Source: Eledone cirrhosa (taxonomy: Eukaryota). Taken from it: a DNA stretch of 64,000 nt. The notes under the pieces were generated by a model. That model was given only the letters and a program-made list of their open reading frames with translations. It did not search any database and was not told where the DNA came from. The stretch covers positions 347,138,001 to 347,202,000 of the forward strand of contig OZ024740.1 in NCBI GenBank assembly GCA_964016885.1, written 5' to 3'. Of this stretch, positions 16,125 to 62,588 are shown one piece after another; the stretch's first letter is position 1; every line of letters begins with the position of its first letter. A program made the translations under genes and the position numbers.

Positions 16125-17383
16125 TACGTATCAGTTTAGCGAACGTTTATTATAACGCCCGCTTTGTCCGTTTGTAAACAAACGGACAGCCTGATTTATG
16201 CCGTACGGTGTTAAGGCAACCATGTCACCTTTTTGTTCAACACTGACACAGGAACGATGTACTAGTTTCAAGCTTCTTAGCTATCATCAGGACCGTATAC
16301 CCTTTTGCCAGATGGTTGAACGTTCGAAAGTATATACTTTCCTTATAAAAATTAACGGCTGAGCAGCCTAATTTGCATATCGAGTGAGTTCAGTCGGCCA
16401 GGCGTACCTAAAACGATAAGTTGTAATAAAATGAAACGAAATTTCATTTCTCACTCTTAGTACGGCACTTACTTAAATGTAAGTATGTATGTATACGTAC
16501 ATACATATATGTATACAGACGTACAGTAGCATGCATATATATATATATATATATATACATATATACATACAGGTACACATATATATATGTACGTATAAGT
16601 TTAGCGAACGTTTATTATAACGCCCGCTTTGTCCGTTTGTAAACAAACGGACAGCCTGATTTATGCCGTACGGTGTTAAGGCAACCACGTCACCTTTTTA
16701 TTCAACACTGACACAGGAACGATGTACTAGTTGCATACTTCTTAGCTATCATCAGCACCGTATACCCTTCTGCCAGATGGTTGAACGTTCGAAAGTATAT
16801 ACTTTGCTTATGAAAATTAACGGCTGATTAGCCTAATTTGCATATCGAGTGAGTTCAGTCGGCCAGGCGTACCGAAAACGATAAGTTGTAATAGAATGAA
16901 ACGAAATTTCATTTCTCACTCTTAGTACGGCACTTACTTAAATGTAAGTATGTATGTATACGTACATACATATATGTATACAGACGTACAGTAGCATGCA
17001 TATATATATATATACATATATACATACAGGTAGCTATATATATATGTAAGTATCAGTTTAGCGGACGTTTATTATAACGCCCGCTTTGTCCGTTTGTAAA
17101 CAAACGGACAGCCAGATATGCGGTACGGTGTTAAGGCAACCACGTCACCTTTTTGTTCAACACTGACACAGGAACGACGTACTAGTTTCAAGCTTCTTAG
17201 CTATCATCATAATAATAAACGTCCGCTAAACTAATACGTACATATATATATCTGTACCTGTATGTATATATATATATATATATATATATATATATATATA
17301 TATATATATATATATATGCATGCTACTGTACGTCTGTATACATATATGTATGTACGTATACATACATACTTACATTTAAGTAA
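16095..17383 (-). mobile_element. Retrozyme-like tandem array (~460 bp monomer, ~2.4 copies + inverted piece), family C
   Basis: ttagcg anchor at 16136/16601/17058 (periods 465 and 457); one HHR per unit; inverted segment 17210-17383. Confidence 0.85.
16254..16296 (-). ncRNA. Minimal HHR (family C, copy 1)
   Basis: ACGGUC CUGAUGA UAGCU-AAGA-AGCUU GAAA CUAG UA^ CAUCGU. Copy 2 (16719-16761) has ACGGUG, giving a full stem I, but GCAA in the core. Copy 3 is truncated at 17209. Confidence 0.85.
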
Positions 17384-18774
17384 GAGCAAATATTGTGGGT
17401 CAACATTCATTATAGCATTTAGAGTGGCAGTACACACTTAGAGATTACATTCATATTAAAAGATACAATCAAAAATACAGGTTAAAATACATGAAATTAA
17501 GCGGTTATATAGTGCAAAGGTTATATGTGTGGCAAGCACGTGCGTCTTGTTTATATAGTGTGGCAGAGAGTTACGTGTGATAGAAGCACTTAAGCAGGTA
17601 ATCGAGAGTGTTAAAGTGGTTGATCTGGTGATGAATTCTTTATATGATTGTTATAGTCTGTGTGTAGAGAAATAATATAAGTATTAATAATAGTGTAAGC
17701 ATTAAAAATATTGGAAATGCGTAGCGAAGCGATGATATGGATTTCATGCACTGCGACATTTTTATAGTCAGGGGAGCGTATCTCTCAGATTATATGCCCC
17801 TCACATAATCCACGAGGATTCGATATTGGGCGTTTGACAATCCATTTAGAGAATCGTAGTCTGATGTTCTTTAGCTCAATACAAGAGGATGTTACGTTGC
17901 GAGAATCGACATCGAAATACTACCCGGAAGTGTGTGTGTGGCTAAGGGGAGTTAATGCATGAGGGGAGGTAACTCAGTGGTTTCTATTACTAACTATTAA
18001 ATTGTGTCTCAAAATAGACCATAACTTATATGGTTATGCGCACTTTCTAAACATTTTTTAACAATTTAAAGTATTTTAACTATAGAGTAGTCTATTAAGT
18101 TGTGCTGAAGGTGTTCTTATTATGGTGATTAACCCCCATCGTAGAGTGCCACAAATGAATATTATACACGACGAGCGAGAATTCTAAATTAATGATCTCT
18201 GTGATTGCAGTCTACTCAAAGAACCAGGCAATGTGATTGCAGAATCACTTCAACACACAATGATCTCTGGCAAGTTCTGGGTCAGTGCTTGCTACATTGG
18301 ATGTCGAAAGATAATCATCACCAGGGCCGACCAGAGGTCAATCCACAGTCCTCATGACTCCAATCTGACCATCAAATCATACATATATGTACAACCCATA
18401 CGCCACTTGCAATACATTCATTCACTGCACTCAGCGTGCCGGTCATACATCTCATCAGCGTTACTAGATTAATTCGTTTTTCATTTGTCCAACGATGTCA
18501 CTTCTTCCGCACAGCACCAACAAGACAATCAATTCAATGCTTAAATTAACTATAAAGTGGTGTAGTGCAGTTCAAGCAAGTGGATGTTGTCACACCTAAA
18601 GGGGAGGTACAAAGGGGTATTCCCCCTGTGAAGGGTTCTAGAGGGATGTCGCGATTTGTGTTATATTAGATCAAAGAGTGTTGTGTATGTGGTATAGGGT
18701 GTGCCCCTGGTGTTTGATGCTAGAGGTGGTGTTTGGTTCAAGTCCGACATTGCTATATATTGGGTTTAAAGTTT

Positions 18775-18892
18775 TGGAAGGAATGTTTGAAGCGGTGCTG
18801 GCAAGTTGCAAACACGTCAGATTTTTTGTTAAGTAGGTTACGGTTAGAGAAGATAATATTGTGGGTCTCTTACATATTGTGGGAAAACTTAC
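18775..18892 (-). mobile_element. PLE endonuclease C-terminal remnant
   Basis: Minus-strand translation ...[25 protein letters not shown] resembles the LLNKRSE..CRH terminus of PLE GIY-YIG ORFs. Confidence 0.5.
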
Positions 18893-19116
18893 ATACATAT
18901 ATATATATATATATATATATATATATATATACATACATACATATATATATATATATATATATATATATATATATATACATACATATATATATATATATAT
19001 ATACATATATATATATATATATATATATATATATATATATATATATATATATATATATATATATATATATATATATATATATATATATACATACACAAAC
19101 ATATATATATATATAT

Positions 19117-19222
19117 ACGATATTAATAAATGGAAACTATATTTATAAAACCATATTTATTTCATTATACATATTTCAGGGATACCAAATTAAATTATGG
19201 TATGCCTTCATCAGACAAAATA
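19117..19222 (-). ncRNA. Second family A copy: ~105 bp island (HHR at 19158-19222) bounded by (TA)n
   Basis: Apparently identical to 493-598 and ends exactly at the 5' strand of stem I. Confidence 0.8.
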
Positions 19223-19401
19223 TATATATATATATATATATATATATATATATATATATATATATATATATATACATATATATATATATATATATACATA
19301 CATATATATATATATATATATATATATATATATATATATATATATATATATATATATATATATATATATATATATATATATATATATATATATATATATA
19401 C

Positions 19402-60578: not shown

Positions 60579-60595
60579 TATATATATATATATAT

Positions 60596-60792
60596 ATAGG
60601 AACGAGTAGGACCCCGACGGCTGAGCTCAAGCCGTTTCGACGGCTAATTTTAATCCAGAATTAGCCGTCGAAACGGCTTGAGCTCAGCCGTCGGGGTCCT
60701 ACTCGTTCCTATTACCCACTCTACTACCCTAAGTATTGAGTACTTTGGTGCGTTATGGTCCACCTGGCTCCTTACCACATTTCCTCCGTTAT
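60596..60792. mobile_element. Family B hairpin, another copy
   Basis: Hairpin 60596-60712 plus tail; same architecture as 20996-21189 in the opposite orientation. Confidence 0.85.
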
Positions 60793-60854
60793 ATATATAT
60801 ATATATATATATATATATATATATATATATATATATATATATATATATATATAT

Positions 60855-61992
60855 ATAAAATCAGGGTCAAGCAAATTGAGAAAAAGTTTTAAAGTAAATT
60901 TTAAAAAATTCACTGTACTTACTATATGTGCCTTTTCCGCGGTTTCCGATCCCAAAATAAATAGATAATCCAAGCGGAATTACATTGAGAAAGAGATCAT
61001 CAGGAGGCTTTTCTCACTCGGAGAATATAAAATTCTCGAGTTCAAATCACAAACTGGCGCCACACAAACCTGTTCCCGAATGAGAGTGAATGAGAGAAGA
61101 AACAATTCTGTCTGGTACCGTGTGGAAAGACAAAGACTAGGTGGACACGTCAATGTACTGCTATTAAAAATAGCAGCCGTTCAAACGACCAAAGTTTTCT
61201 CTACCGTAGGGGAGAATAATAATAAAAGTATGTATTCCTACATCTAAATGTTCTGGCTTGTTAATTTATTAACTTGCCATTTAACCACACTGGCATACGG
61301 TTGGAAAATAATTGTACCCCTATGTGTATTATTTAAATGTAGGAATACATACTTTTATTATTATTCTCCCCTACGGTACAGAAACCTTTGGTCGTTTGAA
61401 CGGCTGATAATTTTAGTAGTAGTACATTGACCTGTCCACCTAGCATTTGTCTTTGCACACGGTACCATACAGAATTGTTTCTTCTCTCATTCACTCTCAT
61501 TCAGGAACAGTTTTGTGTGGCGCCAGTTTGTGATTTGAACTCGAGAATTTTATATTCTCCGAGTGAGAAAAGCCTTCTGACGATGATCTCTTTCCTAATG
61601 TAAATCCGCTTGGATTATCTATTTATTTTGGGATCGGAAACCGCGGTGGAGGCACGTATAGTAAGTACCGTCAATATTTTGAAATTTATTTTAAAACATT
61701 TTCCCTAGTTGCTTGACCTTGATTTTATATGTTCTGGCTTGTTAATTTATTAACTTGCCATTGAACCACACTGGTATATGGTTGGAAAATACTTGTAACC
61801 TTATGTGTATTATTTACATGTAGGAATAGATACTTATTTTAACACTTTTTCTCTATTTGCTTGACCTTGATTTTATATATTCTGGCTTGTTAATTTATTA
61901 ACTTGCCATTGAACCACACTGGCATAAGGTTGGAAAATACTTGTAACCCTATGTGTATTATTTACTTGTAGGGAAATACATACTTTTATTAT
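60855..61992. mobile_element. Family D palindrome + tandem (481 bp period) with two HHRs
   Basis: HHR 61572-61653(+): GCCUU CUGACGA UGAUCUC..GGGAUCG GAAAC CGCG GUG GAGGC; mirror 60930-61008(-); ttctggcttg anchors at 61251/61732. Confidence 0.85.
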
Positions 61993-62199
61993 TTATATAT
62001 ATATATATATATATATATATATATATATATATATATATATATATATATATATACATATATACATTTATATATATATACATATATATATATGTTGTACATG
62101 TGTGTATATATATATATATACATATGTGTGTGTATATATATATATTATACATATATATATGCATGTATGTGTGTGTATATATATATATATATATATATA

Positions 62200-62588
62200 T
62201 ATATTAATAAGAGGAATTCCAACTTTGTCTGATTTACTCGTTTTATTTACAATCCTTTAAAATTTATAATGGTATTATAATGAAATAGTATGATAGAATA
62301 TTAAATTCTAAGTGTTAATTGAACAAGTACTTTCATGCTTTCGCAATCTTCAGGTTCATAATATGTGGTGACAGTCAAGTTTGCAATTTTCAACTTGAAA
62401 ATTGCAAACTTGACTGTCACCACATATTATGAACCTGAAGATTGCGAAAGCATGAAAGTACTTGTTCAATTAACACTTAGAATTTAATATTCTATCATAC
62501 TATTTCATTATAATACCATTATAAATTTTAAAGGATTGTAAATAAAACGAATAAATCAGACAAAGTTGGAATTCCTCTTATTAATATA
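62200..62588. repeat. Near-perfect ~390 bp palindrome
   Basis: Centre ttcaa-c-ttgaa at 62394; about one mismatch seen. Confidence 0.95.
62430..62468 (+). ncRNA. Well-formed minimal HHR (mirror 62320-62358 on -)
   Basis: UGAAC CUGAAGA UUGC-GAAA-GCAU GAAA GUAC UU^ GUUCA; 5-bp stem I, GNRA loop 2, palindromic loop 3. Confidence 0.85.

What the first reader, a model, noticed from the sequence alone, without database searches (positions are those of the whole stretch)
17174..62468. Palindrome turning points cluster at the ribozyme
Fold-back centres lie immediately 5' of stem I (42485, 46899), inside stem II (21131, ~60652), at the CUGAUGA box (17209), around the HHR itself (33480-33535), or ~35 nt upstream (62394). 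Exceptions are the 13352 and ~34285 centres. Inference: RT stalls or the cDNA self-primes at ribozyme hairpins, producing MITE-like inverted repeats without a transposase. Inverted pLTRs are known for PLEs, but a positional link to HHR helices would be a mechanistic clue.
Basis: partly seen in the sequence, partly recalled or inferred. Interest (0 to 1): 0.75.

Follow-up and report, generated by a model that had tools for sequence, protein, structure and literature searches.

The report
Head-to-head Penelope stubs meet at ribozyme
The palindromes are pairs of cut-down copies of a known ribozyme-carrying jumping gene (Penelope-like element) lying head to head in TA repeats, and in some families their meeting point clusters at the upstream edge of the ribozyme, likely because the copied RNA begins there rather than because the copy folds back on the ribozyme.

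Summary

They are not local fold-backs. Each belongs to a dispersed repeat family flanked by (TA)n. Each is built from two inverted copies with their 5' ends facing.

The 42485 palindrome is a stub of a ~6.05-kb tandem element. That element has a complete minimal hammerhead and an 830-aa ORF whose model matches telomerase-type reverse transcriptases. This makes it a Penelope-like element (PLE).

- **One-sided tail:** every pair read has one arm ending at unit position 343 and the other at 206 (14 of 14).
- **Same source:** both arms carry the same alleles (14 of 14).
- **Orientation:** 32 head-to-head pairs against 0 tail-to-tail.

The positional link holds only in some families:

| Family | Where the 5' ends fall |
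|---|---|
| PLE-42 | 8 of 13 short arms within -10..+16 of the 5' edge of helix I |
| f21 | 12 of 16 loci in a 16-nt zone in the loop of helix II |
| HH186 | 2 of 20 truncated starts in the core (3.8 expected) |
| f33 | spread out; 2 of 14 inside the motif |

Self-priming at ribozyme hairpins is not supported. Two separately primed cDNAs that likely run off a common RNA 5' end fit better.

This scan found the same kind of element before on other DNA of this genome.

The parts
42144..42485 (-). PLE-42 long arm (unit positions 343 to 2). It holds the one-sided tail (42144-42280) and a full minimal hammerhead read on the minus strand.
   Evidence: The same 135-nt tail lies on one side only in 9 of 9 stubs.
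42486..42690 (+). PLE-42 short arm (unit positions 2-206). Helix I 5' strand 42486-42491, CUGAAGA 42492-42498, 116-nt helix II, GAAAC-GAUC-GUU up to H17 at 42626, helix I 3' strand 42627-42633. It ends on (TA)n.
   Evidence: Strict descriptor. RNA fold z = -4.9. Arms 100% complementary.
20947..21131 (-). f21 long arm: 58 nt plus a 127-nt tail. It holds the GAAAC-helix III-GUC half only.
21132..21189 (+). f21 short arm, which ends on (TA)n.
60596..60839 (.). Second f21 copy in the opposite orientation: arms 60596-60654 and 60655-60712, with the tail running to about 60839.
   Evidence: 96% identity to 20947-21212, inverted.
16117..17209 (-). Three HH186 units (16117-16302, 16582-16767, 17039-17209), each followed by about 280 nt of (TA)n. 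The hammerhead-like motif sits at the 5' end. The third unit starts at U4 of the box.
17212..17248 (+). Inverted 3' piece of HH186 (unit positions 150-186) that abuts the 5' end of the third unit.
33285..33533 (-). f33 copy cut 8 nt upstream of its degenerate CAGAAGA box. Other copies run on upstream.
33534..33729 (+). Inverted f33 copy that starts 53 nt further into the unit and ends on (TA)n.
46832..47029 (.). f46 palindrome: arms 46832-46899 and 46900-46966, plus a 63-nt one-sided extension. CUGAUGA..GAAAC core on the minus strand at 46898-46876. No helix I.
61990..62788 (.). f62 palindrome with its axis at 62394/62395. Outward-reading cores at 62353(-) and 62435(+), 40 nt from the axis.
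12446..14121 (.). Only one flank is (TA)n.
33852..34731 (.). Palindrome with an 87-nt loop. Degenerate boxes (GUGACGA/AUGACGA) read outward about 215 nt from the inner ends.
27953..28285 (.). CUGANGA boxes read outward at both inner edges (28056-, 28153+).
31041..32798 (.). Outward-reading cores at 31101(-) and 32738(+), 480-646 nt from the inner ends.
60853..61730 (.). Boxes lie 246 nt outward of the inner ends.

Best explanation
The palindromes are head-to-head twin insertions of Penelope-like retroelement ends, and of protein-free relatives of them, in (TA)n repeats. Each turning point is where the 5' ends of two separately started DNA copies meet. It likely falls at the hammerhead because many template RNAs begin at the ribozyme's 5' edge, which lies only 60-340 nt upstream of the two fixed points where copying starts.

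SHOWN
- The two arms face each other with their 5' ends.
- Each insertion has one arm with a tail and one without.
- Both arms carry the same alleles.
- Stubs arise repeatedly from different source variants.
- The parent of the 42485 stub is a ~6.05-kb tandem unit. Reading along the unit: hammerhead, then the two copy-start points, then an ORF for a telomerase-type reverse transcriptase with a GIY-YIG-like C-terminus.

INFERRED
- Both strands of a cut (TA)n target prime cDNA synthesis at two different internal sites of the RNA. This follows what was shown in vitro for the Anolis PLE (PMC11167929).
- When the RNA is short, both cDNAs run to its 5' end and are joined there, which gives a perfect palindrome.
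- When the RNA is long, each cDNA stops at random, which gives an asymmetric centre.

NOT SHOWN
What makes the RNA 5' end: a transcription start, or trimming that stops at the fold.

CONFIDENCE
About 0.85 for the twin-insertion architecture and about 0.45 for the RNA-end account of the cluster. The figure given is for the statement as a whole.
For: ARCHITECTURE
- An exact 30-mer from the 5' part of the PLE-42 hammerhead occurs 716 times in the genome (control 0).
- Among the first 100 places listed I counted by hand 32 head-to-head pairs and 0 tail-to-tail pairs within 12 kb. I also counted 8 same-strand neighbours about 6.05 kb apart.
- One arm ends at 343 and the other at 206 in 5 of 5 long or intermediate pairs and in 9 of 9 stubs. 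The same holds in 9 of 9 pairs sampled by the tail.
- f33 shows 249 against >=264 in 8 of 8 pairs.
- In 11-12 of 15 window palindromes only one flank is (TA)n.

SAME TEMPLATE FOR BOTH ARMS
- In 9 stubs the arms differ at 0-1 sites within a copy and at 0-6 between copies.
- All 5 variable internal columns are mirrored.
- Both arms share alleles in 14 of 14 insertions.

REPEATED ORIGIN
- Stubs carry three allele combinations, two of them also seen in long copies.
- The letters at the axis vary: TAATTA, +3, +5, -3.

CLUSTERS
- Of 39 tail-sampled PLE-42 arms, 35 have a placed 5' end: 22 long and 13 short.
- The short ones lie at -78, -10, 1, ~1, 2, 4, 9, 12, 15, 29, 39, 131 and 163. Eight of the 13 fall within -10..+16.
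- f21: 12 of 16 loci end 7-22 nt before GCCGUC-GAAAC.
- HH186: 50 of 71 copies begin at positions 1-3, the distal end of helix I.

RUN-OFF RATHER THAN FOLD-BACK
- Symmetric ends occur at rare positions too (-78|-78, 15|16, 5947|5948).
- Three of the four long pairs read are asymmetric.

IDENTITY OF THE PARENT
- The model of the 830-aa ORF (mean pLDDT 80.6) has telomerase reverse transcriptases as its six best PDB matches, E about 1e-8.
- Columns conserved across 16 homologues include YRDD and Y..(12)..Y.G..FK.R..H.
- The nearest named Atlas clusters carry GIY-YIG and RVT_1.

LITERATURE (passages read)
- PLE insertions are 5'-truncated, partly tandem and often have an inverted 5'-truncated copy at the 5' end. 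They have a one-sided tail and prefer (TA)n (PMC8557442).
- Both target strands are cut and extended, there are two reverse-transcription start sites, and hammerhead cleavage is not needed (PMC11167929).
Against: - No RNA data were available, so no RNA 5' end was seen.
- One pair (-10|1) has an arm that runs past position 1 while its partner stops there. Position 1 can therefore be an internal stop, unless two RNAs were used.
- Arms spanning more than one unit exist (three same-strand 30-mers in a row), so many RNAs start elsewhere.
- f21 ends lie inside the loop of helix II, an odd place for a transcription start.
- f33 and the truncated HH186 copies show no cluster at the 5' edge.
- For f46 the arms differ in a way shared between copies, so that palindrome seems inherited as a unit.
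- Ten of the 22 'long' PLE-42 arms were classed only from the spacing of pairs, not from sequence.
- Pfam and the PDB sequence profile did not recognise the ORF.
- Rfam recognises none of the ribozyme motifs.
Confidence: 0.55

Rival explanations
1. Release driven by structure. The reverse transcriptase copies through the ribozyme. Once the long helix II has been copied, RNA and cDNA each refold into their own hairpins. The cDNA end would then come off the template within a few bases beyond the fold, so the ends pile up at the far edge of the ribozyme whatever the length of the RNA.
For: - PLE-42 ends lie 0-25 nt beyond the base of a 116-nt hairpin, and only 2 of 13 lie inside it.
- The -10|1 pair shows an internal stop at position 1.
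- f33, whose helix II is weak, has no cluster at the 5' edge.
- Arms spanning several units show that the site can be passed.
Against: - Two independent stops would not give matched rare ends (-78|-78, 5947|5948).
- f21 ends lie in the loop, before the 5' strand of helix II has been copied.
- HH186 truncated starts are spread evenly.
Confidence: 0.25
2. The cDNA snaps back on a ribozyme hairpin and primes its own second strand, which makes the palindrome from one molecule.
For: - Arms within a copy are identical and variants are mirrored.
- Stub centres are symmetric.
Against: - The outer ends always differ (14 of 14, and 8 of 8 in f33).
- Long pairs are asymmetric at the centre.
- Partnerless arms share the same clustered ends.
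- At the 42485 axis there is no loop holding the ribozyme, as pairing through helix I would leave.

Confidence: 0.07
3. Inherited palindromes. A fold-back arose once per family and the whole palindrome is then copied as a unit, so the axis says nothing about recurrent events.
For: - The same axis recurs in about 40 scored loci for each of 42485, 46899 and 62394.
- f46 arms fall into two types shared between copies.
Against: - PLE-42 stubs carry several allele combinations also found in long copies.
- Axis letters vary between stubs.
- f21 5' ends differ between loci.
Confidence: 0.15
4. Geometry only. There is no hot spot. Short 5'-truncated copies must break near the ribozyme because it lies within a few hundred bases of the copy-start points.
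For: - HH186: 2 of 20 truncated starts fall in the core, against 3.8 expected.
- f33 direct junctions are spread: -8|40, 85|169, 81|93, 174|98, 75|112, 1|54.
Against: - PLE-42: 8 of 13 short ends fall in a 27-nt window, P about 4e-6, with the window chosen after the fact.
- f21: 12 of 16 loci fall in a 16-nt zone.
Confidence: 0.2
5. Assembly artefact. The palindromes are chimeric joins made by the assembler or by amplification.
For: A perfect 410-nt palindrome with no spacer looks suspicious on its own.
Against: - Hundreds of copies at different loci share one fixed architecture with the tail on one side.
- Older copies have diverged arms.
Confidence: 0.02

Closest known systems
Insertions of endonuclease-bearing Penelope-like elements: pseudo-LTRs, an inverted 5'-truncated copy, a one-sided tail (Craig et al. 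2021, PMC8557442, passages read)
   Same: Partial tandems, an inverted copy at the 5' end, an extension at one end only, (TA)n targets, and a hammerhead in the repeated part.
   Different: The tail here is 60-137 nt rather than 30-40. Many insertions are twin stubs whose two 5' ends coincide. In two families those ends cluster at or in the ribozyme, which the passages I read do not mention.
Poseidon PLE of Anolis in vitro (Frangieh et al. 2024, PMC11167929, main text read)
   Same: The hammerhead lies just upstream of two internal reverse-transcription start sites, and the sequence between them is the tail. Both target strands are cut and extended. Ribozyme cleavage is not needed.
   Different: That work saw no difference in start site between the two strands. 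Here each insertion has one arm from each site (14 of 14). No biochemistry was done here.
Minimal type I hammerheads of metazoan PLEs (Cervera and de la Pena 2014, PMC4209133, passages read)
   Same: Short helix III with a palindromic loop (GAUC, AAUU, GUAC here), an extra base after A9, and pairs of motifs on opposite strands 100-700 bp apart that were taken as truncated PLEs.
   Different: The PLE-42 motif has a 116-nt helix II. Several motifs here are degenerate (CAGAAGA, CUGAGAA, no helix I). The position of the axis relative to helix I is not discussed in the passages read.
Animal non-LTR retrozymes (Li, Clavereau and Pollet 2026 preprint, abstract only; Cervera and de la Pena 2020, recalled, not read)
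   Same: HH186 is a protein-free, ribozyme-bearing unit found in arrays with a period of about 465-540 nt and in thousands of copies.
   Different: About 280 nt of each period is (TA)n. No circular RNA was examined. Copies show PLE-type head-to-head pairs.
Twin priming of LINE-1 (recalled from memory, no call)
   Same: Both ends of a target break prime cDNA synthesis, which gives an inverted 5' part.
   Different: In LINE-1 the two segments are adjacent parts of one RNA. Here they are duplicates of the same part.

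Membership tests
Penelope-like element (endonuclease-bearing) | Reverse transcriptase related to telomerase | tested here: met
   The model of the 830-aa ORF of a long PLE-42 copy has mean pLDDT 80.6. Its six best PDB matches are telomerase reverse transcriptases, E 1e-8 to 5e-8. YRDD is conserved in 16 homologues. Pfam RVT_1 was not met for the ORF itself and matched 1 of 16 homologues at E 0.0044.
Penelope-like element (endonuclease-bearing) | GIY-YIG endonuclease in the same ORF | tested here: inconclusive
   Conserved C-terminal columns read Y..(12)..Y.G..FK.R..H, then C..C..E and N; I read these by eye as GIY-YIG-like. 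The nearest named Atlas clusters carry PF01541 in 26-50% of members. There was no Pfam hit and no PDB sequence hit. The C-terminal domain was not searched by fold on its own.
Penelope-like element (endonuclease-bearing) | Partial tandems that form pseudo-LTRs | tested here: met
   L089 reads unit 5493-6054, then 1-6054, then 1-343. Eight same-strand neighbours lie about 6.05 kb apart among the 100 listed places.
Penelope-like element (endonuclease-bearing) | Inverted 5'-truncated copy at the 5' end, and a tail at one end only | tested here: met
   14 of 14 insertions, plus 9 of 9 sampled by the tail, have one arm ending at 343 and one at 206. Head-to-head 32 against tail-to-tail 0.
Penelope-like element (endonuclease-bearing) | Hammerhead motif in the repeated part | tested here: met
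   The strict descriptor hits both arms at 42485. The motif occupies unit positions 1-149.
Hammerhead ribozyme (Rfam families) | Match to a curated covariance model | tested here: not met
   No hammerhead family at gathering score in the window, and none at E<=10 in 20 stretches (the stretch for 42485 was cut short). Minimal PLE motifs with a tiny helix III and a long helix II may escape these models.
Hammerhead ribozyme (Rfam families) | Core CUGANGA..GAAA..UH with helices I, II and III | tested here: met
   Met for 42479(-), 42492(+), 590(-), 19214(-) and 12246(+): 5 hits against a mean of 0.13 in shuffles. Not met for 46898 (no helix I), 33525 (CAGAAGA), 21131/60652 (half motif) or 17210 (no C3).
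Hammerhead ribozyme (Rfam families) | Self-cleavage | not testable with these tools
   No assay was possible. One f21 arm (L097) starts exactly after the predicted GUC cleavage site.
MITE (DNA-transposon derivative) | Terminal inverted repeats at the outer ends, with target-site duplication | tested here: not met
   The outer ends of the PLE-42 stub differ: a tail on one side only, in 9 of 9 copies. Flanks are (TA)n, so duplications cannot be read.
Non-LTR retrozyme | Tandem protein-free units with a type I hammerhead, and a circular RNA | tested here: inconclusive
   HH186 arrays of up to 8 units (L065). Most of each period is (TA)n. Circular RNA was not testable.

The most novel reading that the evidence does not exclude
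The hammerhead fold acts as a boundary element rather than as a cutter. It fixes the 5' end of the RNA that a Penelope-like enzyme copies, either by marking the transcript start or by stopping 5'-to-3' trimming or the polymerase at its edge. The pseudo-LTR then begins exactly at helix I. Each insertion is made by an intrinsically asymmetric two-strand priming that uses one start site per strand.
Probability: 0.25. Interest if true: 0.7.

Novelty: new member of a known kind. Interest (0 to 1): 0.45.

Why it matters
How Penelope-like elements insert, and what their hammerheads are for, are open questions. The PLE papers I read call the transposition cycle undefined (PMC8557442). They report that ribozyme cleavage is dispensable in vitro (PMC11167929).

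This genome offers hundreds of young insertions that can be read like reaction products.
- One tail per insertion points to two strand-specific start sites.
- Mirrored variants point to one template source for both arms.
- A sharp class of 5' ends at the ribozyme's upstream edge gives a concrete, cheap prediction for RNA-end mapping.

The finding is also a caution. Most of the apparent clustering inside one window comes from family membership and from the short distance between the ribozyme and the copy-start points.

Tried and rejected
RFAM. An 'evalue' search of the whole window listed only microRNA-like hairpins among its best 150 of 518 matches.

FIND_REPEATS. The call was swamped by (TA)n.

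FIRST READING DROPPED. I first took all axes as inherited family features. I gave this up for PLE-42 and f21.

MY OWN ERROR. From I took window 33533 as the 5' terminus of the f33 family. One search shows that other copies run on upstream with conserved sequence, so it is only this copy's break point.

SEARCH FOR AN f21 PARENT. A pattern joining a canonical box to the helix II strand gave 7 hits. All lie in an unrelated repeat without the 3' half.

OVER-LONG OUTPUT. One search used a query full of (TA)n and gave an unusable list. It was redone with the unique 186 nt.

PROTEIN IDENTITY.
- Pfam gave no match at E<=0.01 and only DUF7108_C at E 0.058.
- A PDB sequence profile gave no match.
- Scanning three homologues gave nothing useful.

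SEQUENCING RUNS. No RNA holder was listed.

READS ON THE STUB.
- Raw RAD-seq reads of a second study show loose ends at 42485/42486. These run on into the unit's upstream sequence, so they come from long copies.
- I could not tell whether any read crosses the axis.

CONTIGS ON A LONG COPY.
- Summed contig depth is higher over unit positions about -30..343 than on either side. The tool warns that such depth cannot rank parts of a stretch, so I draw nothing from it.
- Contigs of three runs end at position 343 followed by (TA)n.

UNCHECKED IDEAS.
- The unit has AATAAA 8 nt upstream of position 1 and TCA(+1)TT at position 1, noted by eye.
- A type III reading of the motif that would cut at position 1 was considered and rejected. 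Only 7 nt lie between that site and C3.

LITERATURE. Two full-text searches listed no paper whose title or abstract states a link between the inverted-copy junction and the hammerhead. I did not open the supplements of PMC8557442 or PMC4209133, which hold ribozyme annotations and may bear on this.

Full report
WHAT IS THERE

Three more are microsatellite palindromes.

The window lies at G000:C1:347138001-347202000 in a 3.0-Gb assembly.

ARE THE RIBOZYMES REAL?

Rfam reports no hammerhead family at gathering score. It reports none at E<=10 in 20 short stretches around the candidates either.

A strict descriptor of my own requires CUGANGA, a closed helix II, GAAA, an A-U closed helix III, a non-G cleavage base and at least 6 pairs in helix I. 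It finds five complete motifs in the window, against a mean of 0.13 in 30 first-order shuffles.
- Two of the five are the two arms of the 42485 palindrome.
- The other three (590-, 19214-, 12246+) sit in elements that are not palindromic.

The looser published core descriptor (PMC8557442, methods passage) finds eight sites.

The motifs have a helix III of one or two pairs capped by a palindromic loop, and often an extra base after A9. Both are traits described for PLE hammerheads (PMC4209133, passages read).

- 46898 has no helix I.
- 33525 reads CAGAAGA.
- 17210 lacks C3.
- 21131 and 60652 hold only the 3' half.

THE PALINDROMES BELONG TO FAMILIES

Eighty-base queries across the axes at 42485, 46899 and 62394 each return about 40 scored loci that span the axis. 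The candidate counts were 701, 112 and 219. The 21131 arm returns 40 loci, 22 of them with an adjacent inverted arm.

The window therefore holds samples of family architectures, not nine local accidents. 21131 and 60652 are the same family.

THE PARENT OF THE 42485 STUB (PLE-42)

A 30-mer from the 5' part of its hammerhead occurs 716 times in the genome, with 0 for the reversed control. Among the first 100 places listed I counted by hand:
- 32 minus-then-plus pairs within 12 kb. Eight have a spacing of 32-45 nt, two have 188 and 293 nt, and 22 have 2.4-9.9 kb.
- No plus-then-minus pair within 12 kb.
- Eight same-strand neighbours about 6.05 kb apart.

I number a tandem unit of 6054 nt from the distal end of helix I.

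| Unit positions | Feature |
|---|---|
| 1-149 | hammerhead |
| 206 and 343 | the two insertion end points |
| 445-2934 | 830-aa open frame on the same strand |

Pfam and a PDB sequence profile do not recognise the protein. Three other lines identify it:
- It has 329 homologues of about 700 aa, mostly on contigs of 2.5-3 kb.
- Conserved YRDD and GIY-YIG-like columns appear across 16 homologues.
- A model with mean pLDDT 80.6 has telomerase reverse transcriptases as its six best PDB matches.

This is a Penelope-like element with the ribozyme just upstream of its copy-start points. The Anolis element studied in vitro has the same layout (PMC11167929).

ARCHITECTURE OF EACH INSERTION

Every PLE-42 insertion I read consists of two inverted arms with their 5' ends facing.
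- One arm ends at 343 and the other at 206. This holds in 5 of 5 long or intermediate pairs and in 9 of 9 stubs.
- It also holds in 9 of 9 pairs sampled by the tail. That last sample could not contain pairs without a tail.
- If the two ends were drawn independently, 14 of 14 mixed pairs would have a probability of at most 6e-5.
- f33 shows the same rule, 249 against >=264, in 8 of 8 pairs.
- In the window, 11-12 of 15 palindromes have (TA)n on one flank only. This is the visible trace of a one-sided tail.

The arms of one insertion carry the same alleles in 14 of 14 cases. In nine stubs, all five variable internal columns are mirrored. Two columns at the axis are not.

Stubs carry three allele combinations, two of which also occur in long copies. 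Their axis letters vary: TAATTA, three or five letters more, or three fewer. Stubs therefore arise again and again.

DO THE TURNING POINTS CLUSTER AT THE RIBOZYME?

I sampled four families in ways meant to be blind to the 5' end.

PLE-42
- I took arms from 40 loci with a perfect tail, 39 of them outside the window. I fetched 20 of the 21 that lacked the exact 30-mer.
- 22 arms are long. Ten of these were classed from pair spacing alone.
- Four could not be placed.
- 13 are short, with 5' ends at -78, -10, 1, ~1, 2, 4, 9, 12, 15, 29, 39, 131 and 163.
- Eight of the 13 lie within -10..+16. The nominal P is 4e-6, with the window chosen afterwards.
- The partner arms start at position 1 (seven times) and at 2, 14, 16 and -78.

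f21
- I read 16 loci chosen among hits that had no listed partner arm.
- In 12 loci the arms begin 7-22 nt before GCCGUC-GAAAC, at differing bases. Three of these are single arms lying directly on (TA)n.
- Four loci run on upstream into a helix I strand and a CUGAGAA box.
- The query began 10 nt before that point, so ends further downstream could not be seen.

HH186
- This is a 186-nt unit with a hammerhead-like motif at its very 5' end, followed by about 280 nt of (TA)n. The genome search gave 2280 candidates.
- I read 30 loci holding 71 copies.
- 50 copies start at positions 1-3.
- The 20 distinct truncated starts run from 8 to 165. Only 2 lie in the core (13-47), against 3.8 expected.
- Head-to-head neighbours within 303 nt occur in 13 of 30 loci. 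Tail-to-tail neighbours occur in none.
- An earlier sample that seemed to show ends at 14 and 24-28 was biased by its query.

f33
- I read 20 loci.
- 12 copies run past the window's break point.
- The truncated starts lie at 11, 40, 72-98 (eight of them), 112-117 (four) and later.
- Two of 14 lie inside the motif (7.4 expected). Eight of 14 lie just 3' of it.
- Direct junctions are scattered.

So there is a real cluster in two families, at different places relative to the ribozyme, and none in the other two.

MECHANISM

The data show otherwise:
- The outer ends are always unlike.
- Long pairs have unlike inner ends (638|5914, 5006|4791, 5660|2708).
- Partnerless arms share the same 5' ends.

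These facts fit two cDNAs primed on the two strands of a cut (TA)n target at two different internal sites. This is an inference taken from the Anolis biochemistry (PMC11167929), not a result of mine.

Short pairs tend to have matched inner ends, even at rare positions (-78|-78, 15|16, 5947|5948), while long pairs do not. I therefore think both copies run off a common RNA 5' end when the RNA is short, and fall off at random when it is long.

On this reading the sharp class at position 1 marks a frequent RNA 5' end at the upstream edge of the ribozyme. An enzyme that starts at the first available start site, 206 or 343 nt downstream, can then only make a stub.

Against this reading:
- One pair (-10|1) shows an internal stop at position 1.
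- Multi-unit arms show that many RNAs start elsewhere.
- The f21 ends lie in a loop.

Release of the polymerase just after it has copied the large hairpin remains a serious rival. Stalling before the fold may apply to f33. I saw no RNA data.

COMPARISON WITH WHAT IS KNOWN

These points are in print:
- Inverted 5'-truncated copies, pseudo-LTRs, one-sided tails and (TA)n preference of PLEs (PMC8557442).
- Hammerheads in the repeats, and pairs of motifs on opposite strands 100-700 bp apart (PMC4209133).
- Two internal start sites, and a dispensable ribozyme cut (PMC11167929).

Three things did not appear in the passages I read, nor in the listings of two full-text searches:
- The strict one-tail-per-insertion rule.
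- The mirrored variants.
- The clustering of 5' ends at the ribozyme's edge.

I did not open the supplements of these papers.

Earlier follow-ups of this scan reached similar readings on other stretches of the same genome. I treated them as leads and re-derived the points above from my own calls.

VERDICT

- The self-priming interpretation is not supported.
- The elements are new members of a known kind.

The value lies in the testable clues about how Penelope-like elements insert.

Noticed in passing
window 22062-23261 (+): A 399-aa open frame with a clear RVT_1 match (E 1.2e-25). By eye it looks like a 5'-truncated LINE-type reverse transcriptase (FADD motif), not a PLE. It is followed by microsatellites.
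   Followed up: partly
window 46700-46830 (-): A sequence that looks like the tRNA-derived head of a SINE lies directly beside the 46899 palindrome. Rfam gives only a weak tRNA match here (21.3 bits, E 0.62, in L013).
   Followed up: no
window 14243-16000: Nearly 2 kb of almost pure (TA)n (GC 0.097 in the 14001-16000 bin). It swamps repeat finders and produces many false microRNA-like Rfam matches.
   Followed up: no
window 534-598 (-), 19158-19222 (-), 12238-12308 (+): Three complete minimal hammerheads by the strict descriptor, each with an 8-bp helix I and a long helix II. Each sits at the start of a short element. None is part of a palindrome.
   Followed up: partly
L097 (G000:C14:36288869-36289737): In one f21 insertion the inverted arm begins exactly at GGGG, the first bases after the predicted GUC cleavage site. 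It is the only arm I saw that could be a copy of a self-cleaved RNA.
   Followed up: no
L133-L152 (f33 copies): 5' ends avoid the inside of the degenerate hammerhead-like region (2 of 14, 7.4 expected). They pile up just 3' of it at positions 72-98 (8 of 14). This is the pattern expected if the polymerase either stops before the fold or passes it whole.
   Followed up: partly
L083 / PLE-42 unit, last 20 nt and position 1: AATAAA lies 8 nt upstream of unit position 1, and the bases around position 1 read TCA(+1)TT. Both were noted by eye as possible processing or start signals. The region is AT-rich, so chance is likely.
   Followed up: no
window 40705-41463 (-): A 252-aa open frame with no Pfam match sits in the 894-nt loop of the 39968-42100 inverted repeat.
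   Followed up: no
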